Of a DNA stretch of 14,892 bases, positions 1 to 14,892 are shown piece after piece (within the stretch, counting starts at the first letter, position 1; the number at the start of each line of letters is the position of its first letter). Source of the stretch: Candidatus Heimdallarchaeota archaeon (lineage in GTDB: Archaea; Asgardarchaeota; Heimdallarchaeia; Heimdallarchaeales; Heimdallarchaeaceae); NCBI GenBank assembly GCA_030668875.1, contig DAOVER010000063.1, positions 1 to 14,892 of the forward strand. The letters are read 5' to 3'. The notes under the pieces are model-generated. The model did not search any database. It was given only the letters and a program-made list of their open reading frames with translations, and had not been told where the DNA came from. Made by a program: the position numbers and the translations under genes.

Positions 1-48
1 TTGCATGTTGAGGTGGTGATGGTTAATACCTCTCCAATTTTCTTCCAT
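1..48 (-). CDS. Possible 5' start of the element-encoded protein (MEENWRGINHHHLNMQ..., truncated by the window edge)
   Basis: ATG at 48-46, open to position 1, directly after the structured leader. The W-x-x-I-N-x-x-x-L spacing resembles the W-x-x-I-[ND]-W-x-x-[LV] start of group II intron RT/maturases (RVT_N), but only 16 aa are visible and the second W is H. Confidence 0.3.
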   Translation of the reverse strand, partial: MEENWRGINHHHLNMQ

Positions 49-337
49 TTTTCTACGAGTTTATATAGGAAAGTGTTGATATATGGGTAGTGCTTGGCGA
101 AAACTCGCCATATTTATGGTTCGCAAGTGTTTGAACACTTGCCCCTCAGTTAATAAAGTTTGAACCATACAGCACGATGCGCAATGGCAGGAATGTAGTC
201 GGAGTAAATGCGCACTCCCTTCCTTCCTTCCCCAATCATGATCCTCATGATTCTTCCCCTCAACGCACGTGAGGGGACCCACTTAAACGACGGTTAGACC
301 GCCTTTGGCAAGTTTAACCAAGTTTCATAACGTGCGT
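49..337 (-). ncRNA. Putative structured RNA (or ssDNA) leader of the terminal element
   Basis: Inverted repeats read directly, in + coordinates: 292-319 hairpin; 256-262/270-276 (7 bp, 7-nt loop); 234-241/245-252 (8 bp); 201-205/214-218; 90-94/171-175 enclosing 95-100/105-110 and 116-122/162-168; 123-130/135-142 (8 bp). I recognise no known RNA family motif. Confidence 0.5.
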
Positions 338-668
338 CTTCACCATAGATATCATACATATCTGGTGAGGCTCCACCGCCGGATAGACCGACTACACCTA
401 GGTCAAAGTCTCTTGTTAACATTAAAGTTCCAATGAACACTGTCCATTCTTCGACTTTAACTTCTATTTCAACACCAATCTCTCTTAGGTATTGAGCTAT
501 ATACAAACCATAGTCAGGTCGTACTCCACCGCCGTTAGTCTTGAAGACTAAGTTAGCTATTGGCTGAACTCCTGCATAAGTGTTATTTGCATTGTATACG
601 CTCATTACAACTAAGCTAGAAAGGATAACTACTGTAAAAAGCATCACTTTTTTTCCCAAATTTTCCAC
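294..668 (-). pseudogene. 5' fragment of an ABC-type peptide/oligopeptide substrate-binding protein (family 5-like), interrupted by the terminal element
   Basis: Hydrophobic signal/TM segment, then IAQYLREIGVEIEVKVEEWTVF...DFDLGVVG, typical of family-5 solute-binding proteins. The last ~14 codons (294-337) are element-derived. The real start may be TTG at 659, 5 nt after an AGGTGG site. Confidence 0.7.
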
Positions 669-940
669 CTATTTTATTATAGAGTATTATCTCTAATGCT
701 CCAACCTTTTACTAGTTACTGCACTTATTATACTGTTTGTGTATTGCACCACACAGCAGCTAATCCTTATAAGTGCTTGATTTGCACAGCCCTACTCTCT
801 TCTTGTTTACTTCTACTAATTTTAGTGTCACTTTTTCCCTCTTCATCTTAGTGCATTATTTATATATTATAGCTCAATTTTCTTTTGTCCTCAAGCACAC
901 ATTGTCTGTAGGATATTTGCACCCAAGATGTGATTAAGGT

Positions 941-1906
941 ATGAAACCAATCGCAGAAATTGTCAAATCACGCTCTTTTTCTATTTTTCAGGCATTTTTT
1001 GTGACAATTCTCTGGTCTTCATCTTGGCCTATTATAAAACTCGGTTTGGAGGAGATTCCACCTCTTTTCTTTGCAGGTTTACGTTACTTTATTGCCTCTC
1101 TAATTCTTGTTACTATTGTATTAGTTTCTCCCAAAAATCGTAAAGTTATAGCGACCATTCCACGAAAATGGTGGTTAAAATTGGTTCTCTATGGTCTGAT
1201 TTTCTATTCTTTAACTCAAGGTGCCCAGTTTGTTGCTATTCTTTATCTTGAAGATACAATTACTGTTAGCCTTCTTCTCAGTTTTACTCCCATATTAGTA
1301 TTGATTTTGGCCATTTTCCTTATTAAAGAAAAGCCCAATCTTGCCCAAGTTCTGTTCGTTCTCACTGCTCTTGCTGGCGCTTTAATGTACTTTTATCCAT
1401 TTGTAGAAATTCAATCATCAATATGGGGTATCATTGGATTAATCGCTGCAATTGTTGGAGTTGTTGCGAATGCGTTGTCGGCAATTATGGGACGGGCTAT
1501 TAATAAAGCTCAAGAATTTAACCCATTGGTTGTTACAACCATTAGTATGTTGATTGGATCCATTGTTTTGCTAGTATCCGCATTAATTATTGAGGAGATC
1601 CCAGTATTGTCTTTAACATCAATTGGATACATTCTTTGGTTGAGTTTTGTAAACACTGCTTTTGCATTTACTTTATGGAACAATGTGTTGCAGAAACTGC
1701 AAGCTGTTGAGATATCAATAATCAACAATACAATGTTAGTACAAATAGCTATTCTCGCATTGATTTTTCTTGGTGAAAGACCATCCGTACTTGAATGGGT
1801 TGGAGTAGCTATTGTTGTTGTATCAGCGCTATTGCTCCAAATATTCAAACCAAAGCGTGATGAATCTCAACTTATACCATTCGAAAAACCGCAGAAGCTG
1901 CTTTAG
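941..1906 (+). CDS. DMT/EamA family transporter
   Basis: 321 aa with about 10 hydrophobic helices. LWSSSWPIIK...PPLFFAGLRYFIA start and AFTLWN...L...FLGE in the second repeat are typical of two-domain EamA proteins. Confidence 0.92.
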   Translation: MKPIAEIVKSRSFSIFQAFFVTILWSSSWPIIKLGLEEIPPLFFAGLRYFIASLILVTIVLVSPKNRKVIATIPRKWWLKLVLYGLIFYSLTQGAQFVAILYLEDTITVSLLLSFTPILVLILAIFLIKEKPNLAQVLFVLTALAGALMYFYPFVEIQSSIWGIIGLIAAIVGVVANALSAIMGRAINKAQEFNPLVVTTISMLIGSIVLLVSALIIEEIPVLSLTSIGYILWLSFVNTAFAFTLWNNVLQKLQAVEISIINNTMLVQIAILALIFLGERPSVLEWVGVAIVVVSALLLQIFKPKRDESQLIPFEKPQKLL

Positions 1907-1935
1907 TTGAGAAAGAATTTCAATCTAATGATATA

Positions 1936-1956
1936 AAATAAAAAAAAGATAAGAAG
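1936..1956 (-). terminator. T-rich archaeal-type terminator
   Basis: An oligo-T run on the minus strand immediately follows the stop of 1957..2856, between convergent genes. Confidence 0.5.
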
Positions 1957-2856
1957 TTATTTTCGTTTTCTTCTTATTATTACTATTACACTAAAAACTA
2001 CTAATCCAACAACAGCAAAGGACCATTCATAAGATGCACTGGTTGGCAACTGAGTACTTTCTATCAATAAGTCAACTGCTGTAGTGTCATCAACTAAAGA
2101 ACCCTCAGTTTCAAGAATTCTATTCCAGTTGAAAGTGTATTGCAAATATGTTACTAACCCTGTTTCTCTGTTAAATCGTAGTTCTGCAACCAAAGTTTCA
2201 GTAGTATGCTCTTTGAACCAATTGTCTGGGTTTCTGAAGTTTTCTACTGTTTCATCTTCAGAAGAATCAATCTTAATTGTCCAAGTATTCGTACTTAGTT
2301 TAGTAGAAGTAACAACTTTCTTAATTTTAAGTTCATAGAATGCATATTCATTAGTTTCTTTTCTTGATTCCTCATCTTTTTCAGAATAACCATTGTGGTA
2401 AATCAGAAAATTGTCATAGACACCAGTTGAATTTGTGTATAATGTAGGCTCCAAGAAGTAATAATCCCCTAAATCCATCCAAGATAAATCAAATATACCA
2501 ATGTCATCTACATTTGTAGATTGGTTTACGTCGTTAAGGGAAAATTCAACCCATACATTTGAAGTGTTGAACAGTTGAAGAGGATCTCCTATTGCTGATT
2601 CATTTACATCTAAAAGTATCGTTGCTGTCAACTTGTCTCCTTGATGAATCGTTTCATCTCCATAATCTAAGAATGCGTTAGTATCTGATCCAACTACAGC
2701 CAGTGTGGTTACACTCCAATCATAAGTAACATCAGGGACTAAAAGCAATGAATAACTATATTCTTGACCTCTTACTATGTTGTTTGAGTTCAAAGAACTT
2801 AGAATAATTAAGGAGAAGAATACTCCTAGCAAAATCATTTTTTTTGAATTTCTCAT
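1957..2856 (-). CDS. Secreted/surface protein with N-terminal signal and C-terminal membrane anchor
   Basis: Basic and hydrophobic N-terminus, polar beta-rich body, C-terminal TM helix followed by RRKRK. AGGTGAG ribosome-binding site just upstream of the ATG. Confidence 0.8.
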   Translation of the reverse strand: MRNSKKMILLGVFFSLIILSSLNSNNIVRGQEYSYSLLLVPDVTYDWSVTTLAVVGSDTNAFLDYGDETIHQGDKLTATILLDVNESAIGDPLQLFNTSNVWVEFSLNDVNQSTNVDDIGIFDLSWMDLGDYYFLEPTLYTNSTGVYDNFLIYHNGYSEKDEESRKETNEYAFYELKIKKVVTSTKLSTNTWTIKIDSSEDETVENFRNPDNWFKEHTTETLVAELRFNRETGLVTYLQYTFNWNRILETEGSLVDDTTAVDLLIESTQLPTSASYEWSFAVVGLVVFSVIVIIRRKRK

Positions 2857-2951
2857 CTTTTCTCACCTAAGCTAATTCTTAACCAAAGAATACTTGTAAT
2901 TATATAATCGCTTTTCAAATAATATAAACCTTTGGAGAATACTAGAGGTAG

Positions 2952-3955
2952 TGTTAACTCAACAGACATGGGTTACACTTGAGGGTATAGAGAGAGTCAA
3001 GGGCACATTCATAAATCTTTCACCAGGAGTTTGAAGGTTTATTCCTTGGTGGGGGCGGGAGAAGTTGTAATAGTCACGATAACGACGGAGGTCAGCATTA
3101 CAGTAAGTTAATTCTAACCTCTTCATCTCTCTGATGATTGTACCATGGAGACGCTCGACTTTACCACAAGTTTCGGGATGATACACTCGTGCTCGGATAT
3201 GGTCGATAATATTCGTCTTACACCATCGGGTGAAGGAACTTGTCCCTCCTCTTTGTGGGTGGAAGATGGCACCATTATCTGTTAAGATCTGACGGGGAGT
3301 GCCATAGGTTTGCATAGCCTGGTCTAAGAGATGGAGGATGTCCCAGGTCTTAACAGGACGGGGGAAGAACTTTGCTCCTACACAGAACCGTGAGTGGTCA
3401 TCAATAACACTTACAAGGTGAAGATGCTGTCCCTGTTCTTCTACCCAGAAGGGTCCCTTGATATCTATCTGCCAGAGATCGTTAGGTTCTTCTCGTTCGA
3501 ACCTTTTCACCCTCTTGTAAGCTTTCTTTGTCGTTCTCCACTTCTCCTCCCCCTCTTGTTGGAGCGTCTTCCAGACAGTCGTGTGAGAAAGGTTTATCCC
3601 TTCGAGTGTTAGGATATAGGCTATTTTCACTATATTGAAGCCATATGCTCTCCTGAGAGCGAGAATACGCTCCTTCTTTTCTTCTGTCACTTTCCCCTTG
3701 ATCGTCTTGGGTCGCGAGGATCTTTCCTTGTACCATTCCCCTTCAGGGTCCTCGCTATGTCTTTTCATCCACTTATAGATGAACTTCCTGCTGACCATAA
3801 ACGCTCTAGCTAGATGGGTAATGTTTTCGCCATTCAAAGCCTTTTTAACTACAATTTTTCTAAGTTTTACCAGGTTACGTTTGGGTTTCATGTTTAATCA
3901 CATACCCTCCGTAACCCATTCTTTTAAACTGTTACCAAGGTGGGTTTAGTTAACA
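2952..3955 (-). mobile_element. IS481-family insertion sequence, 1004 bp
   Basis: 5'-TGT...ACA-3' ends. Imperfect 29-bp terminal inverted repeats: TGTTAACTCAACAGACATGGGTTACACTT vs TGTTAACTAAACCCACCTTGGTAACAGTT, 22/29. Single transposase ORF. Visibly higher GC than the flanks. Confidence 0.9.
2959..3891 (-). CDS. IS481-family transposase (HTH + rve integrase core)
   Basis: DDE motifs WQIDIKG, VIDDHSRF, ILTDNG, GKVERLHGTI and YYNFSRPHQGI..TP; N-terminal HTH (VSRKFIYKWMKR). The stop codon lies inside the terminal repeat. Confidence 0.95.
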   Translation of the reverse strand: MKPKRNLVKLRKIVVKKALNGENITHLARAFMVSRKFIYKWMKRHSEDPEGEWYKERSSRPKTIKGKVTEEKKERILALRRAYGFNIVKIAYILTLEGINLSHTTVWKTLQQEGEEKWRTTKKAYKRVKRFEREEPNDLWQIDIKGPFWVEEQGQHLHLVSVIDDHSRFCVGAKFFPRPVKTWDILHLLDQAMQTYGTPRQILTDNGAIFHPQRGGTSSFTRWCKTNIIDHIRARVYHPETCGKVERLHGTIIREMKRLELTYCNADLRRYRDYYNFSRPHQGINLQTPGERFMNVPLTLSIPSSVTHVC

Positions 3956-4004
3956 ATTGATTATTCTTTTTAAAAAAACTATAAAAGAGAAAATAATGAG
4001 GTAG

Positions 4005-4517
4005 TTATATCCCAAAAGGAGAATCCCACGCAACTATCTCGGTAGTATTATAGACAAAGCTGTGTTTGAATAAATAGAAGTTAATTACTAAACTTATCCC
4101 TATCTCTATTTCTAAGTCTCCATCTTGAATTGCTAATAAAACAATCTCTGTTGTGATATTAGTTTCTATATCTCCAGACCAGTTTGATCCAGGTTTAATA
4201 TCTCCAAGGTTATTAACACCTTCTCCCAATAGAAGACCATTCAAGCTACTTATGAGGAAATTAGCTCCGTAAATTTTAATTTTTACAACAATGTTTTGAA
4301 ACTCATATAATCCACCATTGGATATTTCTAAATGGGTTTTTGAAACAATAAAACCAGTGTAATCAAATAATAATTCCGTAATGTTTGATGTTACTGTAGT
4401 ATCATCTACTGAATATATAACATTCTTGTAGGAGTAAAATAGCGTTCCACCAAATGCTCCAACTAAGATAATTACTGTTGTAAAAATAATCAGGAAAATT
4501 TTTAATCCCTTTTTCAT
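4005..4517 (-). CDS. Single-pass membrane protein, hypothetical (possibly LEA_2-like beta fold)
   Basis: N-terminal TM helix followed by a beta-rich soluble part; GGTGA site upstream of the ATG; T-rich tract downstream. The fold guess is inference. Confidence 0.7.
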   Translation of the reverse strand: MKKGLKIFLIIFTTVIILVGAFGGTLFYSYKNVIYSVDDTTVTSNITELLFDYTGFIVSKTHLEISNGGLYEFQNIVVKIKIYGANFLISSLNGLLLGEGVNNLGDIKPGSNWSGDIETNITTEIVLLAIQDGDLEIEIGISLVINFYLFKHSFVYNTTEIVAWDSPFGI

Positions 4518-4590
4518 ATCTCACCAGAAAAATTATCAACTAAAAAACATATTCTTTAAACTAGTAAATTGCCTCTATTTGTTCTTAAAC

Positions 4591-4749
4591 ATGTCTAGAT
4601 TTATATTTTTGAGTTCCATCTTTTCCTTAGATTTTGAAGAATATAGAAATCCGATTGTTCGTTTAGCGGAATACAGTGATTACTTTATTAATCTAGGGGA
4701 AAAACTTCAAAATGAAATAATTGAACGTACTGGACATTCGAACTATTAA
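4591..4749 (+). CDS. Small 52-aa ORF or gene remnant, not in the ORF track
   Basis: MSRFIFLSSIFSLDFEEYRNPIVRLAEYSDYFINLGEKLQNEIIERTGHSNY*. It fills the gap between two genes and its TAA (4747-4749) abuts the PadR stop codon. Confidence 0.35.
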   Translation: MSRFIFLSSIFSLDFEEYRNPIVRLAEYSDYFINLGEKLQNEIIERTGHSNY

Positions 4750-5118
4750 TCATTTTTCAAATAATTCCCCAGCTTCAGAAATAGAGGCGAATAGCTGTTC
4801 CCAATCTTTTTTCATAACTAGAAGCAGTTCTTGTCCTTTTTCAGAAAGACTATAATATGTCCTAACTCTTCCTCCAACAGTCTTATTTTGGTAGGTCACC
4901 AAGCTTTTTCGTTTTAATCTTGTTAAGACATTGTAAATTGCTCCATCTGTTAAAGGAGGTTCCGTTAAAGGTAGCAAAGATCTGACTAATTGTAAAATAT
5001 CCCACCCATATCTTTCCTTTTTTAGTAAGATGAGCACGAGAAATTCTAGAATCCCTTTAGACAATTGTGCCCTCCATTTTTTCAAGAGAATATCTTCATC
5101 ATGCTCATCTATAGACAT
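4750..5118 (-). CDS. PadR family transcriptional regulator
   Basis: KGILEFLVLILLKKERYGWDI, GAIYNVLTRL and GGRVRTYYSLSEKG winged-helix motifs. Confidence 0.92.
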   Translation of the reverse strand: MSIDEHDEDILLKKWRAQLSKGILEFLVLILLKKERYGWDILQLVRSLLPLTEPPLTDGAIYNVLTRLKRKSLVTYQNKTVGGRVRTYYSLSEKGQELLLVMKKDWEQLFASISEAGELFEK

Positions 5119-5364
5119 CTAATCATCTCCTTTCTTCAAGTTTGACGAGAGTTGAAGTGTTTTTTCATCCCATTTAAAGAATATGAAGAAGATTACGCAT
5201 ACGAATATTACAACATCATACCAGTTAGGTAACCAAGGAACAACAGCTGAAAATTGCAATTGTATGTAAGGATATATGCGTGTTATATTTTCAAAGTACA
5301 ATATAACGTGATATTTCAGCACCCCTGATCCATTAACATTTAATGATATATACTTAATTGACAC
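5119..5364 (-). CDS. Small hypothetical membrane protein
   Basis: One hydrophobic segment (WYDVVIFVCVIFFIFF). Its TAG is immediately followed by the PadR ATG. The GTG start is uncertain and the ORF may be spurious. Confidence 0.35.
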   Translation of the reverse strand: MSIKYISLNVNGSGVLKYHVILYFENITRIYPYIQLQFSAVVPWLPNWYDVVIFVCVIFFIFFKWDEKTLQLSSNLKKGDD

Positions 5365-5538
5365 GTTATATTCATCGCTTGAATAACTAGGTGTTGAGTA
5401 GCTATCGAAATTACCATCAATTCTTCAGCTAAGTCATTTCTTGACATGAAGGTTCGAGAACAGGATAGACTTGAAACCCTAAGGTTGCGTTATGAAGGAA
5501 TCATAAGCAAATATACATATAATATTGGTGAACAAAAA

Positions 5539-6048
5539 ATGGAAAACACTGACAAATATCGAATCGTTAAATTACCCCCTCTTAGAGTTGTTTCATTCCA
5601 TGCAATGGGAATATTCTTGGGAGATCCAGAAACAAAAGCATCTGCAGAATTAAGCTCTTGGGCTAATCCGAAAGGTGTGCTCAAAAATCCAGAAAAACAC
5701 AAGGTTTACGGATTCAATAATCCTGATCCTAAGTACGATAAAGAAACAGGGGATTTCATCGTCAATGAAGAAAACCCGTACGGCTATGAATTCTGGATTA
5801 CTATAGATGAAGATTTTAAAGAAGAAGAGAATATCACAGTTAAAGAAGTTCCTGGTGGCTTATACGTCGTAACAAGCTGCATAGGTGTACAAACACTAGG
5901 TGAAACATGGAAAGATCTCTATAGATGGGTGAAAGAAAGTAAGAAATACAAATTTGGGAAAAATCAATGCTTGGAACACAGTAAAGATCCAACAATTTCG
6001 GATGAATCAGAATTAAATTTTGATTTATATTTCCCCATATCAGAGTAA
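5539..6048 (+). CDS. GyrI-like small-molecule-binding domain protein
   Basis: LPPLRVVSF...YGFNNPDP...YGYEFWITI...VKEVPGGLYVV...WKDLYRWV pattern. I prefer the start at ATG 5539 (GGTGA at 5527-5531) over the ORF-track start at 5446. Confidence 0.85.
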   Translation: MENTDKYRIVKLPPLRVVSFHAMGIFLGDPETKASAELSSWANPKGVLKNPEKHKVYGFNNPDPKYDKETGDFIVNEENPYGYEFWITIDEDFKEEENITVKEVPGGLYVVTSCIGVQTLGETWKDLYRWVKESKKYKFGKNQCLEHSKDPTISDESELNFDLYFPISE

Positions 6049-6058
6049 AAATGCTCTA

Positions 6059-6082
6059 TTTTCTTTTTTACTTTTTTCTTTC
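6059..6082 (+). terminator. T-rich archaeal-type terminator
   Basis: Successive oligo-T runs just after the stop at 6048. Confidence 0.55.
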
Positions 6083-6125
6083 ATTAATGCACTAAATTTT
6101 TAATTACAAATGTCAAGATGCTTAT

Positions 6126-6617
6126 ATGAGAGGTATTCGCAGAAAAGAAAAAGCAATTACTGACGAAAAAATAATGAAGAAAATTCTCTTGGAAGTTGCT
6201 TACATAACCATTGCTTTATGCAAAGATAACCAACCATATCTTGTAAGTTTAAGTCATGGTTATGATCCTGACAAGAACTGCATATATTTCCACTGTGCTA
6301 GCGAAGGGAAAAAGATAGATTACTTGAAAGAAAACAATATAGTTTGGGGACAAGCCATTGTTGATAAGGGGTATATTCAAGGTGCTTGTGACCATCTTTA
6401 TGCAACAACTCAGTTTAAGGGCAGAGTGTCATTTGTTGACGATTTTGAGGAGAAGAAAGAGGCTTTAATCAACATGGTGCTTAAACTAGATGAAAACCCA
6501 GATGTCTTAATTGAAAAACAATTAACTCAACAATCTGTCTCAAAAATAATAATTGGACGAATTGACATTGAATACATGAGTGGAAAAGAAGCAAAAGAAG
6601 CAGTAATCTCGCTTTAA
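6126..6617 (+). CDS. Pyridoxamine 5'-phosphate oxidase-like / NimA-type flavin-binding protein
   Basis: MRGIRRKEKAI start, PYLVSLSHGY and IYFHCASEGKKIDYLKEN motifs of the Pyridox_ox_2/NimA family. Confidence 0.88.
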   Translation: MRGIRRKEKAITDEKIMKKILLEVAYITIALCKDNQPYLVSLSHGYDPDKNCIYFHCASEGKKIDYLKENNIVWGQAIVDKGYIQGACDHLYATTQFKGRVSFVDDFEEKKEALINMVLKLDENPDVLIEKQLTQQSVSKIIIGRIDIEYMSGKEAKEAVISL

Positions 6618-6618
6618 T

Positions 6619-7116
6619 CTATTTTCCTACTGTTCTCCTTATCAAGTAATTAGCAACAAATTCCAGTGCAGGTGCTAGTTGGTAGACAGATCTTATAATA
6701 TCCTCTCTCTCAGAAAATTTTTCACGATTAGATCTACAAGCATAGAATCGTAATACAACCCTTCCAGGACTGGTTTCAAAGTTAAAAATCTCCAAACCTT
6801 GTTGTCTTGGGATAGATTTTACTTTCTCTTGTAGTGTTCCTAATAAACTATTTTGGATATCTTCTAACTCTCCAGGATACAAACCAACGCCTTCTATCTC
6901 TATAATTCCATATTTACCTTTGAAATATCCACAGAAAAGTTTCACTAAACCAGATGTACAGACAGCATCAATTTTATAATCTGTACTAAAATCACATTTC
7001 TTAAAATAATCAACGCAGAGATCTTCTATTACATAAATTCCATCTTCAATAAGACAAGATTCAAGGTTAACTTTGCGACCTGCATTGGGCATTTGAGAGA
7101 ATTGATATAGATTCAT
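6619..7116 (-). CDS. Hypothetical protein
   Basis: Long ORF with protein-like composition. The ORF-track start at 7239 overlaps the upstream gene and its T-rich terminator, so ATG at 7116 (or 7092) is more plausible. No recognised motif. Confidence 0.65.
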   Translation of the reverse strand: MNLYQFSQMPNAGRKVNLESCLIEDGIYVIEDLCVDYFKKCDFSTDYKIDAVCTSGLVKLFCGYFKGKYGIIEIEGVGLYPGELEDIQNSLLGTLQEKVKSIPRQQGLEIFNFETSPGRVVLRFYACRSNREKFSEREDIIRSVYQLAPALEFVANYLIRRTVGK

Positions 7117-9788: not shown

Positions 9789-10412
9789 ATGAATGAGTAT
9801 CATATTATTAGACTAATTTGTTTGATGAAAATGAAAATCGATAAAACATACAAAATCACCTTGATTGGTGACGGAGCTGTAGGAAAAACTTCCATTCGTC
9901 GTTCTTACTTAGGTGAGACTTTTGAGGGAAATTATAGTCTTACATTAGGCTCTGATTTTGCTACCAAAACTATGCAAGTATTTGATCTCACTGTCAATAT
10001 GATTATATGGGATCTTGCAGGTCAACCGCGCTTCAAAGCTGTTAGAGAAGGATTTTATCGAGGAACTAAGGGAACTTTACTAGTCTATGATATAACAAGA
10101 AAAGATACATATGAAAACATCCCACGATGGATTATGGAACTACTGAAAAATAATGGAAATAAAAAAGTTCCAATGATTCTAATTGGAAATAAATCTGATT
10201 TGAGAGGGTCATTGTACAAAACTATTCCATCTGACCATGGAGAAACCTATGCTAAAGAATTAGGTTTATGGAGTGGTTTTGATGTTCCATACATTGAAAC
10301 TTCTGCTAAATTTGGTGATAATATAGAACAACCTTTTGAAACATTAATCAAACAGATTATCAAAACAGATCAAATGAAAACTATAACTAGTTATTTGCAA
10401 GGAGAATTGTGA
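9789..10412 (+). CDS. Rab-like small GTPase (Ras superfamily, eukaryotic signature protein)
   Basis: G1 GDGAVGKT, G2 TLGSDF, G3 WDLAGQ, G4 GNKSD, G5 ETSAK and RFKAVREGFYRG. The start may be a later Met (MKMKIDK). Confidence 0.93.
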   Translation: MNEYHIIRLICLMKMKIDKTYKITLIGDGAVGKTSIRRSYLGETFEGNYSLTLGSDFATKTMQVFDLTVNMIIWDLAGQPRFKAVREGFYRGTKGTLLVYDITRKDTYENIPRWIMELLKNNGNKKVPMILIGNKSDLRGSLYKTIPSDHGETYAKELGLWSGFDVPYIETSAKFGDNIEQPFETLIKQIIKTDQMKTITSYLQGEL

Positions 10413-10434: not shown

Positions 10435-12783
10435 TTATTCCCAAAATCGTTTAATTTTTCTCATTAAATCTTCTTTTCCAGAGATTCTTGGAACACTATC
10501 CCAATGCTTTGGAAACAGTCTCTCATATGTTATAGATGAGTATCTGTCTCCAATTAGTAACACTACTCCTCTATCCGTTTCTGTTCGAATTACTCTTCCA
10601 ATTGCTTGTAGAACCCTATTCATACCTGGATAAGTGTATGCAAAGAGAAATCCTTTCCCATTTTTCTTATCAAAGTATTCCTTTAGAAGATTTTGTTCCA
10701 GACCCACTTTAGGTAATCCCACTCCCACTATCACAGCTCCAGAAAGTTTCTCTCCAATAAGATCTATTCCTTCACCAAATATCCCTCCCATAACAACAAA
10801 ACCAATCAGGGATTTTTTACCAAATTTGGAGAATTCATTGAGAAAAATCTCCCTTTCATTTTCAGTCATTCCAGGGGTTTGTTTGATTATCTTCGCCTTT
10901 ACATTAAGTTTAAGGAAATGTTGGAATGCCTCTTCCATGTAAGCGTAAGATGGGAAAAATATCAAAAAGTTACCCGTTTTACCTTTTGCTATCACTCCTA
11001 CAAGTTTTGCAATTTCATCATATGAATATTCTCTCATTGTGTATTTTGTAGAAACATAATCAGCAATGTATAATCCGAGATTTTCTCTAGGGAATGGTGA
11101 ATTTAGTAGTAGTTTTGCTGAATTATTATCTCCTCCAAGTAATTCTTGGAAATAACTTGCAGGTGTTAGTGTAGCAGAAAAGAATATAGCGTTTTTTCCT
11201 TTTTTTAATGCTTTTTTCAATAATTTTGATGGATCTAAACAATAAAGCCTAATTCTCACATTATTTTTGTATTTCTTGAAATAGGTAAGGAATCGTTGGT
11301 CATAATCCTCAACAACTCTCAGGAAGTTTCTTGCTTCAAAATAGAACTCCAACAATTTCTCTCGAAAGCTGGAATAAATGTTTAATTCTAACCATACTTC
11401 AGCATCTCGAGAAAATTTCCTTAAATCAGCAATGAACTCTTTAGACGGTAGATCTTTTTGCACATGAGAATATGTACCATTTTTCTCACACATCTTCCTT
11501 GCTACAATCATATGTTGATTAAGTTTGTTCAATAAAGAAGATAATTTTGGAACATCTGTTTTGGTTGCTCTTCTCAAATCTAAAATTGGTTTTTTCATTA
11601 AATCTGCTGAGAACATCTCTCTAGATCTGTCAACTAGATTATGAGCTTCATCGATAAGAAAGGTGAAATCACCCTTATCCTCTAAGAAGAATCTCCTGAG
11701 ATAAACTCGAGGATCAAAAACATAATTATAATCACATATGATACAATCACTCCACAGTGTTAAATCCAAAGAAAATTCAAAAGGACACACTTGATGTTTT
11801 CTTGCATATTTCTCAATATTTTCTCTTGTAAAAGAATCTTGTGAATAGATGTCCTCGATTGCATTGTTTACTCGATCAAAATGCCCTCGTGCATACTCAC
11901 AATAAACTGGGTCACAATTGTCTTTCTCTTTAAAACAAATTTTCGCTTTAGCCGTTATTGTAACTGATTTGAGTTTAAGTGATTTCTTTCTGAGAATAGA
12001 AAGTGTTTCTTCAGCTATAAAACGTGTAGTTGTTTTAGCTGTAAGATAGAATATTTTGGAATCTAAACCATTATTTAATGATTTAATCGCAGGATAAAGA
12101 ACTGCTATAGTTTTGCCTATGCCAGTTGGTGCTTGACAGAAGAGCTTCTGTTGGTTTTTTAGCACGTCAGTTGTTACTTTAACCATCTTATCTTGACCCT
12201 TTCTATATGCAGGAAATGGAAATTTAACCGTCTTTATACTCTTATTCCTAGTTTCAAGCCATTTGAAAACAGAGAATGCCCACCCTAAATATTTGTCAAC
12301 TAAATCTAGACATTTTGTTTTGAGTTCATCTAGTCTATATGTTTTAACGAAGGATCTGGTTTTCTTTGTGTCTAAGTTGAAATAAGTGAGTTGTATGTTA
12401 ATTATTTTGAGATTATTTTGTTTAGAGTAAATGTACCCATAGCAAATTGCTTGAGCCCAATAGTTCTCATTGGATTTTTCTTTAATGCTTGACAAAGTTC
12501 TTTGAGTAGTCTTAATTTCTTCGAGAAACGTCTGACCATTTTCCTCGAAAATACCATCAATTCTCCCCCCTAAATGTAATATGCATTTGTCTCTCTCAAT
12601 TAGTTCTTTTACAGAAACTTCTTTTCTATACTTGGGTCCTCTCTTCTTTTGAACATACTGATGACCCTTTGTTCCTTCCGCTAATCGAGAACGCTGGAAA
12701 TATCCCACAGATATGTCTCCTTTACGTAAAACGTAAGAAACTAAATTCCGGACGGATACCTTAATTGTGGGTTTGGGAACCAT
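10435..12783 (-). CDS. XPD/Rad3/DinG-family Fe-S helicase with N-terminal PD-(D/E)xK (RecB-like) nuclease domain
   Basis: Nuclease motifs GHQYVQ, GRIDG, EEIKT and QAICY. Helicase motifs QAPTGIGKT, IDEAHNL, SATL, GGIFGEGID and QAIGRVIR. Four Fe-S cysteines (KIC, NCD, YCE, VCP). Confidence 0.92.
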   Translation of the reverse strand: MVPKPTIKVSVRNLVSYVLRKGDISVGYFQRSRLAEGTKGHQYVQKKRGPKYRKEVSVKELIERDKCILHLGGRIDGIFEENGQTFLEEIKTTQRTLSSIKEKSNENYWAQAICYGYIYSKQNNLKIINIQLTYFNLDTKKTRSFVKTYRLDELKTKCLDLVDKYLGWAFSVFKWLETRNKSIKTVKFPFPAYRKGQDKMVKVTTDVLKNQQKLFCQAPTGIGKTIAVLYPAIKSLNNGLDSKIFYLTAKTTTRFIAEETLSILRKKSLKLKSVTITAKAKICFKEKDNCDPVYCEYARGHFDRVNNAIEDIYSQDSFTRENIEKYARKHQVCPFEFSLDLTLWSDCIICDYNYVFDPRVYLRRFFLEDKGDFTFLIDEAHNLVDRSREMFSADLMKKPILDLRRATKTDVPKLSSLLNKLNQHMIVARKMCEKNGTYSHVQKDLPSKEFIADLRKFSRDAEVWLELNIYSSFREKLLEFYFEARNFLRVVEDYDQRFLTYFKKYKNNVRIRLYCLDPSKLLKKALKKGKNAIFFSATLTPASYFQELLGGDNNSAKLLLNSPFPRENLGLYIADYVSTKYTMREYSYDEIAKLVGVIAKGKTGNFLIFFPSYAYMEEAFQHFLKLNVKAKIIKQTPGMTENEREIFLNEFSKFGKKSLIGFVVMGGIFGEGIDLIGEKLSGAVIVGVGLPKVGLEQNLLKEYFDKKNGKGFLFAYTYPGMNRVLQAIGRVIRTETDRGVVLLIGDRYSSITYERLFPKHWDSVPRISGKEDLMRKIKRFWE

Positions 12784-13517
12784 TATCTAACACTCTTTGT
12801 TTTAACAAATTCGAGTAGTATATAATACTAGTTAAGAGAAAGTGTAGGTTTTGATATAAAAAGAAAGATAGTTTTTTGTAAGAATCAAATAACGATAAGA
12901 GAAGAATAAATATTTCAGAAGATTTGATGAGTTCTTTTCACCATTTAGCGGATTTATTGAATTTTCTATTCACTTTGAAGCTGTATCATTTTCAATGGGA
13001 TTCCTCTGACTTCTAACAATAGAATTATAATTCATAAATCGGATTTATGCCTATATTTAATATCTTTGTAGGTTAAAATATGAAAAATCCATTAAAACAG
13101 TCCAAAGCCTCAATTAGACAATTTGTATGTGTTATACTATTAATTTTTGTAATAAGCATGTCCTCTAATATGAAAGTAAATGCTACAAACGTCTCTCATG
13201 ACCCACCATCTTGCTCTTCTCTGATTCCACATGATTCTATTGAAATTACTTCTGATAGTGGTTTTTTAGTTTTTCCTGGTTCAGGAATAGTAGAAGATCC
13301 TTATCTTATTGAAGGATACAATATTACGACACCGAGTGCAAGTGGAATTTATATTGAGGGTACAACGAAACATTTCGTTGTTCGTAACTGTTATGTAGAT
13401 GCATTAAGCTATGGTATTCGTATCTATAATGTAGCTTCTGGAACAGCAACTATCGAGAATAACATGATCAACAACAACGACATGGGCATCTTTCTTTCCT
13501 CTTATGATTCTTCCACT

Positions 13518-13623
13518 GTTTCCAACAACACTTGTAGCAATAACATTTATGGCATCTATCTTTCCAATTTTGGTTCTTCTACCGTTTCCAACAACACTTG
13601 TAGCAATAACATTTATGGCATCT
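13518..13623 (+). repeat. Two identical 40-bp copies at 66-bp period within the beta-helix gene
   Basis: GTTTCCAACAACACTTGTAGCAATAACATTTATGGCATCT at 13518-13557 and 13584-13623. Confidence 0.95.
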
Positions 13624-14186
13624 GGCTTGAGTCTTCTGCTAGTTCTACTGTTGTAAACAACACCTGTAACTTCAACAATGTAAATGGGATCATGCTTTGG
13701 GCTTCCGCTAGTTCCACTGTTATAAACAACATTTGTAACAATAACAACTATGGCATTGGCGTGTTTCAACATTCTGATAGTTCTACTATTGCCAACAATA
13801 CTTGTAGCAACAACAACGAATATGGTATCTGGTTTAGGGATTCTGATAGTTCTACAGTGGCCAACAACACTTGTAGCAACAACGACTGGTATGGCATCTC
13901 TCTTGAAGAGTCTGATTTTTGTGTTGTTACTTACAATCTCTTACAAGAAAATGAAAACTATGGAGTATACTTATATTTAGATTCTGATAATAATCTTGTT
14001 CATCATAATACCTTTGTAGACAATAATCTAGGCGGAACTTCCCAAGCAATAGATAGTGGAGCTAACAACTACTGGTATGATACTGTAGCTTTGGAAGGTA
14101 ATTACTACAATGATTGGTCAGGAACCGGTTCTTATTCTATTGATGGTTCTGCTGGTTCTATTGATCTCTATCCTCTTGATGGCTCC

Positions 14187-14210
14187 CCATCTGACCCTCC
14201 ATCTGACCCC
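14187..14210 (+). repeat. 12-bp tandem repeat encoding a PSDP-PSDP linker
   Basis: CCATCTGACCCT followed by CCATCTGACCCC, between the two beta-helix modules. Confidence 0.85.
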
Positions 14211-14751
14211 CCACTTATCCCACATGCTTCGATATCAATTACTTCTGATATTGGATTTGCGGTTTTTCCCGGTTCAGGAACAGCTGAAGATCCTTATCTT
14301 ATTGAAGGGTATAACATTACAACAACAGATACTATTGGTATTCATATATCTGGTACAACAAAATATTTCGTTGTTCATAATTGCTATGTTAACGCAAATG
14401 ATTATGGCATTTATATCGATAATGTAGCTGCTGGTACAGCAATTATCATTAGCAACACTTGCAACAACAATAACTTAAGAGGTATCTATATTTACGAGTC
14501 TAGCAGTTCTACTGTTGCCAACAATACTTGTATCAACAACTGTGAATATGGTATTTATCTTGGGGATTCTGTTAGTTCAACTGTTTCCAACAACACTTGT
14601 AGCAACAATAACCTTTATGGCATCTATCTTGACTCTTCTGGCAGTTCTACTGTTTCTAACAACTTTTGTAGCTATAACAACGATGGCATCCTGCTTTACT
14701 GGTCTGTTAATTCTGATGTTACTAACAATATGTGCAACAATAATGATGATT

Positions 14752-14892
14752 ACGCACGTTATGAAACTTGGTTAAACTTGCCAGAGGCGGTTTAACCGTC
14801 GTTTAAGTGGGTCCCCTCACGTGCGTTGAGGGGAAGAATCATGAGGATCATGATTGGGGAAGGAAGGAAGGGAGTGCGCATTTACTCCGACA
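14752..14892 (+). mobile_element. End of the same unclassified multicopy element (copy 2, runs off the window end)
   Basis: 138/141 nt identical to the reverse complement of 197-337; begins abruptly inside a beta-helix repeat. Confidence 0.85.

What the first reader, a model, noticed from the sequence alone, without database searches (positions are those of the whole stretch)
1..337. Unclassified multicopy element that inserts into coding genes and opens with a ~290-nt non-coding leader
Seen: the same sequence interrupts two unrelated genes (junctions at 337/338 and 14751/14752), both times in the sense orientation of the host gene, giving the shared tail ARYETWLNLP(K/E)AV*. No plausible gene lies in the first 290 nt. 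Knowledge: DDE insertion sequences usually have short ends, whereas long structured leaders directly at the junction occur in group II introns, IscB/IsrB omega-RNA elements and IS110 bridge-RNA elements. This leader lacks the group II 5' GUGYG at the junction, and the visible ORF start has neither a PLMP nor a DEDD-type motif. Inference: a possibly undescribed RNA-based mobile element of Asgard archaea.
Basis: partly seen in the sequence, partly recalled or inferred. Interest (0 to 1): 0.85.

Follow-up and report, generated by a model that had tools for sequence, protein, structure and literature searches.

The report
Gene-less IS607 mini-transposon with guide RNA
The repeat at both ends of this contig is a 401-base, protein-less offshoot of an IS607-type jumping gene of a Heimdall-group archaeon that keeps the transposon ends, a promoter and the guide-RNA scaffold of the transposon's TnpB-like protein; it is well defined but of a kind already described.

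Summary
The junctions (337/338, 14751/14752) and the shared read-through tail are real. The element has no long leader in front of a gene: it is 401 nt in all and has no gene. The "ORF start" is a 16-codon frame.

The genome holds about 18 copies in two subfamilies, plus an 83-nt mini form.

Its ends match those of a 2,728-nt autonomous element (contig C48). That element encodes an IS607 serine transposase and a 638-aa protein with a TnpB/Cas12f fold.

It carries a guide-RNA (omega RNA) scaffold behind an invariant TATA box. A hairpin loop pairs with the last 6-7 nt before the flank, and this pairing covaries across relatives.

Relatives' empty sites show no target duplication. They carry an ACCGT-like 5-mer where the element sits, as expected for an IS607 target that also serves as the TnpB target-adjacent motif (TAM).

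Copies lie in both orientations relative to genes, and about half lie outside genes.

This is not a group II intron, an IS110 bridge-RNA element or an assembly artefact. It is a new member of a known kind. This scan had already reached the same class for other copies in this genome and in related genomes. Expression and nuclease activity are untested.

The parts
1..337 (+). Left-hand copy of the 401-nt gene-less IS607 derivative. It covers element positions 65-401, read in transposon orientation on the + strand, and is cut by the contig end. The right end (RE) terminus is at 337.
   Evidence: BLAST to full copy C95:100420-100820, 96.7% over 337 nt. The RE terminus ...CATAACGTGCGT is identical at 26 junctions.
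60..67 (+). TATA-box-like motif TTTATATA, the putative archaeal promoter of the guide RNA. It points towards the RE.
   Evidence: GTTTATATA is invariant in 14 homologues that are 77-100% identical to the reference copy (alignment A2, columns 23-31). It lies about 25 nt upstream of the first covarying stem. Function is inferred, not shown.
90..337 (+). Predicted omega-RNA scaffold, about 248 nt, with several stems. It ends exactly at the element terminus.
   Evidence: RNAalifold on A2 gives 64 pairs, 9 with compensatory changes. The RE part was tested on 33 sequences: 7 pairs with double changes, and 0 of 500 shuffles reach the observed value. The last ~225 nt align with the 3' end of tnpB plus the RE of the autonomous element.
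256..276 (+). Hairpin CCCCTCA / TGAGGGG. Its loop ACGCACG (263-269) forms the 5' strand of the pseudoknot.
   Evidence: Helix 1 and helix 2. Loop and terminus covary (ACGCTCG with CGAGCGT, ATGCACG with CGTGCAT, ACACACG with CGTGTGT). Distant tnpB loci use quite different but still complementary 7-mers.
292..319 (+). Stem GGTTAGA (292-298) with TTTAACC (313-319). It encloses the RE arm of the subterminal inverted repeat (306-325), the probable transposase-binding site.
   Evidence: Helix 3 has 3 pairs with double changes. The inverted repeat is element 23-42 with 370-389, 20 nt and 75% complementary.
331..337 (+). Terminal CGTGCGT. It is the 3' strand of the pseudoknot and the last nucleotides of the scaffold. 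CGT is repeated at the left end (ACCGT), so it holds the probable recombination core.
338..357 (+). Predicted guide segment of the left copy, the flank that would be transcribed after the scaffold. It is antisense to the interrupted solute-binding-protein gene.
   Evidence: Inferred from the TnpB/omega-RNA architecture. The 20-nt length is assumed. No RNA data are available.
338..668 (-). First 110 codons of a family-5 solute-binding-protein-like gene, cut by the insertion. The rest of the gene is not in the assembly.
   Evidence: Weak SBP_bac_5 hit, 26.3 bits, below the cut-off. Orthologues 75-90% identical run on uninterrupted past the junction. No partner contig was found.
14752..14892 (-). 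Right-hand copy, element positions 261-401 in transposon orientation on the - strand. The RE terminus is at 14752. It is cut by the contig end, and its other half is on contig C81 (left end at C81:7551).
   Evidence: The flank next to the C81 left end continues the orthologous gene of genome G021.
14732..14751 (-). Predicted guide segment of the right copy. It is antisense to the beta-helix gene.
   Evidence: Inferred, as for 338-357.
13080..14751 (+). NosD/right-handed beta-helix repeat gene, interrupted at a ...NNNDDY|G... repeat codon.
   Evidence: Pfam NosD 175.8 bits and Beta_helix 168.7 bits. The G021 orthologue is uninterrupted and has ACGGT (ACCGT on the transposon strand) at the site.

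Best explanation
Window 1-337 and 14752-14892 are two copies of a 401-nt non-autonomous (MITE/PATE-like) derivative of an IS607-family transposon.

The autonomous relative (C48:36122-38849) encodes a serine-recombinase transposase (TnpA) and a 638-aa TnpB-like protein. The mini element keeps four things:
- the left end (ACCGT...) and the right end (...CGTGCGT), with a subterminal inverted repeat that probably binds TnpA;
- an invariant TATA box;
- behind it, a structured RNA of about 250 nt that ends exactly at the right-end terminus, so that transcription continues into the flank;
- net, about 396 nt of inserted DNA, because the left-end ACCGT takes the place of the target 5-mer.

Proposed mechanism. 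TnpA supplied in trans excises the element as a double-stranded circle and integrates it by conservative recombination at ACCGT-like sites. The core lies within the CGT shared by both ends, and no duplication results. Excision restores the site exactly. The element's own omega RNA, whose guide is the right-hand flank, would then load the TnpB-like protein made by full-length copies. That complex would recognise the vacated site (ACCGT-like TAM plus flank), leading to re-copying of the element from a sister chromosome.

Shown here: the anatomy, the copy number, the kinship with the IS607 element, the RNA covariation including the pseudoknot, the absence of duplication, and the target motif.
Inferred from published IS607/IS605 work: mobilisation in trans, transcription, guide use and DNA cleavage.
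For: 1. The element is 401 nt and has no ORF. The genome holds 13 left-end and 12 right-end junctions of subfamily 1, 5 copies of subfamily 2 and an 83-nt mini form.
2. The last 86 nt are shared at 88-98% identity with the 2.2-2.7-kb elements. The left-end ~40 nt and about 225 nt of the right end align with C48.
3. C48 encodes an IS607 transposase (NF033518 163.8 bits against a cut-off of 110; MerR plus Resolvase domains) and a 638-aa protein. Its C-terminus aligns with the Cas12f/TnpB zinc ribbon and RuvC-III motif. Its AlphaFold model (pLDDT 82.5) hits only Cas12f/TnpB/Cas12 structures among the top 50, including IS607 ISFba1 TnpB (8iaz) and ISDra2 TnpB (8h1j).
4. RNA structure: 96% of cells are paired, 7 pairs have changes on both sides, and 0 of 500 shuffles reach this value; slid controls give 22-46% paired. 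The pseudoknot between loop and terminus is kept with different sequences at tnpB loci of 32-45% protein identity. A pseudoknot next to the guide is the conserved feature of omega RNAs and Cas12 guide RNAs (PMC10097598).
5. The gene-less lineage keeps the RNA without any coding constraint. Fourteen homologues from this genome and 7 other genomes of the genus keep an invariant TATA box, and 9 pairs covary.
6. At 8 sites, relatives carry ACCGT, ACCTT, GCCAT, ACCAC, ACCGT, ACTGT, ACTGT or TCCGT where the element sits, with no duplication. Position 2 is C in 8 of 8 in a genome of about one-third G+C. This mirrors the IS607 CboIStron, where the TnpA target TGGG equals the TnpB TAM and the scaffold ends in the shared core (10.1101/2023.11.20.567912).
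7. Gene-less PATEs that encode omega RNAs used in trans are described for IS200/IS605 (10.1101/2023.03.14.532601).
Against: - There is no RNA evidence. The only RNA-labelled runs hold little of the stretch, and one is probably DNA.
- The TnpB-like protein has an invariant histidine (H620) where the third RuvC aspartate should be, so DNA cleavage is not assured.
- Its matches to the Pfam and NCBIfam TnpB models are below their cut-offs.
- The target motif is read from orthologues and one paralogue (68-90% identical), not from true pre-insertion alleles. Several of those 5-mers lack the CG/GT core. Two junction positions (C26, C16) were extrapolated across 7-35 unaligned bases.
- No Rfam family matches the RNA.
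- The partner contig of the left copy is missing.
Confidence: 0.88

Rival explanations
1. The mini element is mobilised by IS607 TnpA, but its RNA part is only a decaying passenger. It would be a relic of the tnpB 3' end, or nothing more than transposase-binding DNA, and would not be made or used as a guide RNA.
For: No transcript data are available. The 83-nt mini form on C88 keeps only about 47 nt of the left end and about 36 nt of the right end, so the RNA is not needed for the DNA to be present. The partner protein lacks the canonical third catalytic Asp.
Against: Gene-less homologues, 77-100% identical to the reference copy and drawn from this genome and 7 others, keep every stem, with 9 compensatory pairs and an invariant TATA box, although no reading frame constrains them. 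Compensatory changes in the loop-terminus pseudoknot are an RNA-level signal. A double-strand recombinase site would not need them.
Confidence: 0.08
2. It is a self-splicing intron: an ORF-less group II intron, or a group I intron as in IStrons, that sits in genes and is removed from the mRNA.
For: It interrupts two genes in the same relative orientation in this window. It is highly structured, with a terminal sequence complementary to an internal loop. Other first readers of this scan read the same sequence as group II domain I.
Against: No group I or group II Rfam model matches at E up to 10 (window 1-700) or up to 1 (full copies), and there is no GUGYG at either end. No RVT_1 reverse transcriptase was found in the genome, which is 92% complete. 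Copies lie in both orientations, and about half of the junctions abut no long open frame. Its ends and about 225 nt are those of an IS607 element. In this window the RNA strand supported by the promoter and by homology to the tnpB-sense omega RNA is antisense to the host genes.
Confidence: 0.02
3. It is a non-autonomous IS110/IS1111-type element whose structured end encodes a bridge RNA, with a loop that pairs with the element's own end.
For: A 7-nt loop is exactly complementary to the terminal 7 nt, which superficially resembles a donor-binding loop.
Against: No DEDD_Tnp_IS110 (PF01548) match was found anywhere in the genome, while the control genomes ring. The elements that share these ends encode a serine recombinase and a TnpB-like protein. 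The pairing is the pseudoknot typical of omega RNAs.
Confidence: 0.01
4. It is an assembly artefact: chimeric contig ends created by a repeat.
For: Both copies sit at contig ends. One pair of subfamily-2 copies (C29, C83) has flanks swapped relative to the orthologues.
Against: The same precise termini occur at 26 right-end and 21 left-end junctions, including internal full copies on C95, C29, C83, C88 and C48. Homologues occur in 9 other genomes of the genus. An independent-format contig covers 311-416 with no difference. Contigs break in the repeat because it is a repeat.
Confidence: 0.01

Closest known systems
IS607-family tnpA(serine)-tnpB-omega RNA elements, for example the Clostridium botulinum CboIStron (Zedaveinyte et al. 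2023, 10.1101/2023.11.20.567912)
   Same: The transposase is a serine recombinase with an N-terminal MerR-type HTH, and tnpB lies downstream. The guide-RNA scaffold overlaps the 3' end of tnpB and ends at the right-end terminus. There is no target duplication. A short target motif stands next to the left end and doubles as the TAM. The scaffold ends in the nucleotides shared with that motif.
   Different: There is no group I intron. The target/TAM is ACCGT-like rather than TGGG. The TnpB-like protein is about 640 aa, with an enlarged helical lobe and His in place of the third RuvC Asp. The host is an Asgard archaeon. The copies in this window carry no genes.
PATE-like gene-less IS200/IS605 derivatives that encode omega RNAs (Meers et al. 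2023, 10.1101/2023.03.14.532601)
   Same: They are protein-less and multicopy, share their ends with autonomous elements, and carry an omega RNA that must be used in trans by a TnpB encoded elsewhere.
   Different: Those are mobilised as single strands by a Y1 HUH transposase that recognises subterminal hairpins. This element belongs to the IS607 family, which moves as double-stranded DNA by a serine recombinase. It also has its own conserved TATA-box promoter.
ISFba1 TnpB-reRNA (RAGATH-18-derived RNA; PDB 8iaz, Cell Res 2024, PMC11061315) and ISDra2 TnpB-omega RNA (PDB 8h1j; PMC10097598)
   Same: The predicted fold of the partner protein matches them (Foldseek probability 1.00). The RNA has a pseudoknot formed by the nucleotides just upstream of the guide.
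   Different: Sequence identity is 14-16% and TM-scores are 0.24-0.40. The protein is about 240 residues longer. The RNA matches no Rfam family at the thresholds used.
IS110/IS1111 bridge-RNA elements and group II introns
   Same: They also have a long structured non-coding RNA at an element end.
   Different: No DEDD recombinase and no reverse transcriptase were found, there is no domain V and no GUGYG, and both recombination partners are of the IS607 type.

Membership tests
IS607 family insertion sequence (for the autonomous partner and, through shared ends, the mini element) | Serine-recombinase transposase with an N-terminal MerR-like HTH | tested here: met
   C48:36214-36801 scores NF033518 transpos_IS607 163.8 bits (cut-off 110), with Pfam MerR and Resolvase domains. 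The mini element itself has no gene.
IS607 family insertion sequence | The mini element shares both termini with the autonomous element | tested here: met
   The right-end 86 nt are 88-98% identical, and weaker similarity extends to about 225 nt. The left-end ~40 nt align (ACCGT..CAAC..CAATCTTG).
IS607 family insertion sequence | Conservative integration: no target-site duplication, and a short core shared by both junctions | tested here: met
   At 8 sites, relatives carry a single ACCGT-like 5-mer in place of the element. The occupied sites read ACCGT...GTGCGT, so the CGT triplet shared by both junctions holds the core, which is CG or GT. The exact core dinucleotide is not resolved.
IS607 family insertion sequence | Excision as a double-stranded circle and re-integration by TnpA | not testable with these tools
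   This needs a transposition assay or circle-junction reads.
TnpB / omega RNA (OMEGA) system | Partner protein with the TnpB/Cas12f fold: WED, REC, a split RuvC and a zinc ribbon | tested here: met
   The AF2 model has pLDDT 82.5, and the top 50 PDB matches are all Cas12f/TnpB/Cas12. phmmer against 8hr5 gives E 1.8e-5 over the C-terminal 125 aa. The Pfam TNB score (24.8 bits) and the NCBIfam TnpB score (16.6 bits) are below their cut-offs.
TnpB / omega RNA (OMEGA) system | Canonical RuvC catalytic triad D-E-D | tested here: not met
   D436 and E535 are invariant, but the third position is an invariant His (H620) in 15 homologues. RuvC-III Asp-to-His branches are reported in PMC10691335. Activity is unknown.
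TnpB / omega RNA (OMEGA) system | Structured RNA that overlaps the tnpB 3' end and the right end, stops at the transposon boundary, and has a pseudoknot next to the guide | tested here: met
   Covariation is shown. The scaffold ends at the terminus at all junctions.
TnpB / omega RNA (OMEGA) system | The RNA is expressed, bound by TnpB, and guides recognition of TAM plus flank | not testable with these tools
   No usable RNA runs were found. The TAM is inferred from empty sites only.
MITE / PATE-like non-autonomous element | Short, without a coding gene, multicopy, with near-identical copies at unrelated sites | tested here: met
   The element is 401 nt and its longest internal frame is trivial. 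There are about 18 copies, those of subfamily 1 being 96-100% identical, with unrelated flanks.
Group II intron | 5' GUGYG, domain V, a 3' AY, and usually a reverse transcriptase | tested here: not met
   No Rfam intron model matches. The ends are ACCGT... and ...GTGCGT. No RVT_1 match was found in the genome.
IS110 bridge-RNA element | A DEDD (RuvC-like) recombinase of the IS110 family associated with the ends | tested here: not met
   PF01548 is absent from the genome, which is 92% complete, while the controls ring.

The most novel reading that the evidence does not exclude
The gene-less copies may be more than debris. They could be about 18 independently promoted guide-RNA genes that programme a His-type TnpB-like protein in trans.

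IS607 excision is exact, and the ACCGT/ACGGT target coincides with the conserved Asp-Tyr-Gly-Ile codons of the large beta-helix surface-protein family. At least three, and possibly four, insertions sit at that same repeat position. Insertion and RNA-guided retention could therefore act as reversible on/off switches of surface-protein genes in a Heimdall-group archaeon. Alternatively, the His-type protein may bind DNA without cutting it and act as an RNA-guided regulator.
Probability: 0.1. Interest if true: 0.6.

Novelty: new member of a known kind. Interest (0 to 1): 0.3.

Why it matters
It removes a candidate new class of RNA-based mobile element and several look-alike readings of the same repeat (group II intron, bridge RNA, ribozyme).

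It gives a clean archaeal example of the IS607 branch of guide-RNA transposons in miniature form, with defined ends, a promoter, a covarying pseudoknotted scaffold and an inferred ACCGT-like target/TAM.

It also explains why this assembly is broken at many contig ends and why several beta-helix and transporter genes look truncated.

For people who mine compact RNA-guided proteins, the roughly 640-aa TnpB-like lineage with an invariant histidine in the RuvC-III motif now has a scaffold and a TAM prediction that can be tested directly.

Tried and rejected
- Rfam scans found nothing relevant. Window 1-700 at E up to 10 and four loci at E up to 1 gave only chance-level snoRNA/sRNA hits.
- An ORF downstream of the "leader" does not exist. 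The genes are on the other strand.
- I searched for the missing half of the left-hand host gene. Only paralogues are in the assembly.
- Orthologous empty sites for the copies on C95, C31 and C65 gave no match in the relatives searched. The C48 site has only a 73%-identical orthologue, which is uninformative.
- RNA evidence: the RNA-labelled runs hold 8-12% of the sampled words. One looks like DNA, and the other covers only 365-515, with 8 differences in 151 nt, so it comes from a relative's gene. This says nothing either way about expression.
- The sigma-70 promoter scan is irrelevant to archaea. It found none, and its one terminator-like hit (95-110) is simply the first stem of the RNA.
- Guide-directed homing between beta-helix paralogues does not explain the repeated insertions at one motif. 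The three right-hand flanks share only about 6 nt, so a shared target 5-mer explains them better.
- I did not build a covariance model of the 300-column RNA, because calibration would probably have exceeded the time limit.

Full report
**Observation**

The window is contig C73 of a 99-contig, 3.23-Mb genome. Its first 337 nt (read on the minus strand) and its last 141 nt are copies of one repeat. Both copies abut open frames, and read-through gives the tails ...ARYETWLNLPKAV* and ...ARYETWLNLPEAV*. So the junctions at 337/338 and 14751/14752 and the shared tail are real. The tail is simply the translation of the same repeat end in one frame.

The repeat gives about 40 matches in the genome, many at contig ends. 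In public run X1 the depth is about 800-7,000 over the repeat against about 47-100 in the flank. Several different sequences continue from position 337, and a 106-nt contig covers 311-416 without a difference. That contig has only 27 nt on the repeat side, and the run may be the source sample. The contig ends are therefore the usual breaks of an assembler in a repeat, not chimeras.

**Size and content**

Oriented comparison of the copies shows that similarity stops after about 400 nt. The internal full copy C95:100420-100820 is 401 nt. The frame that seems to open at the window edge is 16 codons long and ends in a stop. There is no gene. The "290-nt leader in front of an ORF" does not exist.

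A motif scan of the genome gives:
- 13 left-end and 12 right-end junctions of the main subfamily;
- 5 copies of a second subfamily about 80% identical to the first (for example C29:51575-51972);
- an 83-nt mini form (C88:71839-71921);
- a 772-nt form with tnpA only (C15:30712-31483);
- several long elements.

**What it derives from**

The terminal 86 nt at the junction are shared with elements of 2.2-2.7 kb.

The first is a 196-aa protein that scores 163.8 bits on NCBIfam transpos_IS607 (cut-off 110) and has MerR and Resolvase domains.

The second is a 638-aa protein. Its C-terminus aligns with the zinc ribbon and RuvC-III motif of Cas12f/TnpB structures. With an alignment of 15 homologues, AlphaFold gives a model of pLDDT 82.5. 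Its best 50 PDB matches are all Cas12f, TnpB or other Cas12 proteins, among them the IS607 ISFba1 TnpB (8iaz) and ISDra2 TnpB (8h1j). TM-scores are low (about 0.2-0.44), as expected for a multi-domain protein about 240 residues longer than TnpB.

The Pfam and NCBIfam TnpB scores are below their cut-offs. The third catalytic residue is an invariant histidine, H620; D436 and E535 are conserved. I therefore call it TnpB-like. Branches with Asp-to-His in RuvC-III have been reported (PMC10691335).

The protein family occurs in 23 of 23 other genomes of the genus.

The mini element aligns with the left-end ~40 nt of C48 and with its last ~225 nt, that is, the 3' end of tnpB plus the 89-nt non-coding right end. 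The end at the junction is thus the RIGHT end of an IS607-type element. In this window the transposon strand is + for the left copy and - for the right copy.

**The RNA**

In TnpB systems the guide (omega) RNA scaffold overlaps the 3' end of tnpB, ends at the transposon boundary and continues into the flank as the guide.

I aligned 33 right ends (92 nt) from this genome and from relatives and tested a structure that I wrote from the sequence: a 7-bp hairpin, a second 7-bp stem, and a pseudoknot between the hairpin loop and the last 7 nt. The result was 96% of cells paired, 7 pairs with changes on both sides, and none of 500 shuffles reaching the observed values. Sliding the partners by 1-3 columns gave 22-46% pairing.

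The pseudoknot changes in step. ACGCTCG pairs with CGAGCGT, ATGCACG with CGTGCAT, and ACACACG with CGTGTGT. At tnpB loci only 32-45% identical in protein, the loop and the downstream 7-mer are different sequences but still complementary: CGCATAC/GTATGCG, CACATGC/GCATGTG and CACAAAAC/GTTTTGTG. The outermost pair (A with the terminal T) is not conserved, so the pseudoknot is 6 bp. A pseudoknot formed by the nucleotides just 5' of the guide is the conserved core of omega RNAs and Cas12 guide RNAs (PMC10097598).

The gene-less lineage provides a natural control for coding constraint. Matches to the mini element occur in 9 other genomes of the genus. Fourteen homologues, 77-100% identical to the reference copy and taken from this genome and 7 of those genomes, keep an invariant GTTTATATA. 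About 25 nt downstream begins a multi-stem fold with 9 compensatory pairs that runs to the terminus.

In the window this places the TATA box at 60-67, the scaffold at about 90-337, and the predicted guide at 338-357. The guide length is assumed.

No Rfam family matches. No RNA data could be obtained. Transcription and use of the RNA are therefore inferred.

**Insertion chemistry and target**

For eight insertions I found the uninterrupted sequence in relatives or, in one case, in a paralogue.

| Site | 5-mer(s) in relatives, transposon strand | Notes |
|---|---|---|
| Right copy of the window (partner left end C81:7551) | ACCGT | G021 orthologue |
| Left copy of the window | ACCTT, ACCTT, ACCAG, ACCTG, TCCGC | five relatives |
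| C84 / C71 | GCCAT | paralogue inside this window |
| C29 / C83 | ACCAC, ACCAC, TCCAC, TCCGT | |
| C78 | ACCGT, ACCTA, ACCTT | |
| C15 / C49 | ACTGT, ACTGT, ACCGT, ACAGT | |
| C26 | ACTGT x3, ACCGT | position extrapolated over 7 unaligned nt |
| C16 | TCCGT x2, ACCAT | position extrapolated over 14-35 nt |

In every case one 5-mer stands where the element sits, and nothing is duplicated. The occupied sites read ACCGT...GTGCGT. The element as I delimit it therefore contains the target 5-mer at its left end. The net insertion is 396 nt, and CGT is present at both junctions.

This is what conservative recombination at a CG or GT core predicts. It parallels the IS607 CboIStron. There TnpA integrates a double-stranded circle at TGGG with a GG core, excision is exact, the same TGGG is the TnpB TAM, and the scaffold ends in UCGG, sharing the core with the TAM (10.1101/2023.11.20.567912).

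By analogy, ACCGT would be the TAM of the vacated site. The right end (TGCGT) differs from it at positions -4 and -5, which would protect occupied sites.

The two ends also carry an imperfect subterminal inverted repeat, element 23-42 with 370-389. It is the likely TnpA-binding site.

Caveats: relatives are not the true pre-insertion alleles, and several of their 5-mers lack CG or GT.

**Orientation and genes**

Of 26 right-end junctions, 9 abut a long open frame antisense to the transposon strand, 5 abut one in the same sense, and 12 abut none. Left-end junctions are likewise mixed. There is no orientation rule, which argues against any intron-like reading.

At least three insertions (C73 right, C71, C5) sit at the same place of the repeat unit of NosD-like beta-helix genes, after ...AATGAYT. 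Their right-hand flanks share only about 6 nt. The simple explanation is that the conserved Asp-Tyr-Gly-Ile codons contain the target ACGGT.

**Rivals**

- Group I or group II intron: no Rfam match, no GUGYG, no RVT_1 in the genome, and both orientations occur.
- IS110 bridge-RNA element: no DEDD recombinase in the genome, with positive controls ringing.
- Assembly artefact: excluded as described above.
- The RNA is a relic in the gene-less copies: this cannot be excluded without RNA data, but the covariation and the invariant promoter argue against it.

**Comparison and novelty**

The element works like the gene-less, omega-RNA-bearing PATEs of IS200/IS605, which are used in trans by TnpB (10.1101/2023.03.14.532601). 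It belongs, however, to the IS607 (serine recombinase) branch.

A literature search for Asgard, TnpB and IS607 together found only the general TnpB census. I know of no published description of these archaeal mini elements.

Within this scan, the same class was already assigned to other copies in this genome and to similar families in related genomes. I reached my reading before opening those notes and re-tested it here. The lead on the histidine came from them, and I checked it. According to those earlier notes the organism is a Heimdall-group Asgard archaeon; I did not test its taxonomy.

**Verdict**

The element is a new member of a known kind, of modest interest.

Noticed in passing
L031:1345-3261 (G000 C48:36844-38757) and alignment A3: The TnpB-like protein of this transposon family is about 640 aa. 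It has an invariant His (H620) in place of the third RuvC Asp and an H-C-C-C zinc ribbon. It occurs in all 23 other genomes of the genus.
   Followed up: partly
G000 C95:34008-35831: A second TnpB-like lineage, 40% identical to the first, lies in the same genome. Its own downstream hairpin loop and terminus are complementary (CGCATAC/GTATGCG), so it probably has a separate omega RNA.
   Followed up: partly
G000 C29:51575-51972 and C83:33627-34024: These are two subfamily-2 copies. Compared with the orthologues, the gene next to the C29 left end continues next to the C83 right end. This indicates either recombination between the two copies or a mis-join by the assembler. The C29 copy begins ACAGT and the C83 copy ends GCAT.
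   Followed up: partly
G000 C88:71839-71921: An 83-nt mini derivative is made of about 47 nt of the left end joined to about 36 nt of the right end. It lacks the RNA scaffold.
   Followed up: no
G000 C15:30712-31483: A 772-nt derivative keeps both ends and an apparently intact tnpA (195 aa, 85% identical to the C48 TnpA) but has no tnpB.
   Followed up: no
window 13080-14751; C71:141; C5:180; C84:13746; C81:7551: Several insertions lie in paralogous NosD-like beta-helix genes at the same repeat position, the Asp-Tyr-Gly-Ile codons, which contain the target 5-mer.
   Followed up: partly
window 2959-3891 (-): A 310-aa protein with HTH and rve (DDE integrase core) domains marks a second, unrelated insertion sequence in the window.
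   Followed up: no
window 9789-10412 (+): A 207-aa Ras/Roc-family small GTPase (Pfam Ras, 153 bits).
   Followed up: no
window 10435-12783 (-): A 782-aa XPD/Rad3-type helicase (DEAD_2, HBB, Helicase_C_2) carries an N-terminal PD-(D/E)XK nuclease-like segment.
   Followed up: no
G000 C26:141-147: The first 7 nt of the flank next to this right end (ATTAACT) differ from all four orthologues (TCTCCAA), while the rest of the flank aligns at 78-90%. This small change at the junction is unexplained.
   Followed up: no
G000 C91:28225-28528: A copy of the main subfamily loses similarity after 304 nt, so about 97 nt of its left end are missing. It is truncated or interrupted.
   Followed up: no
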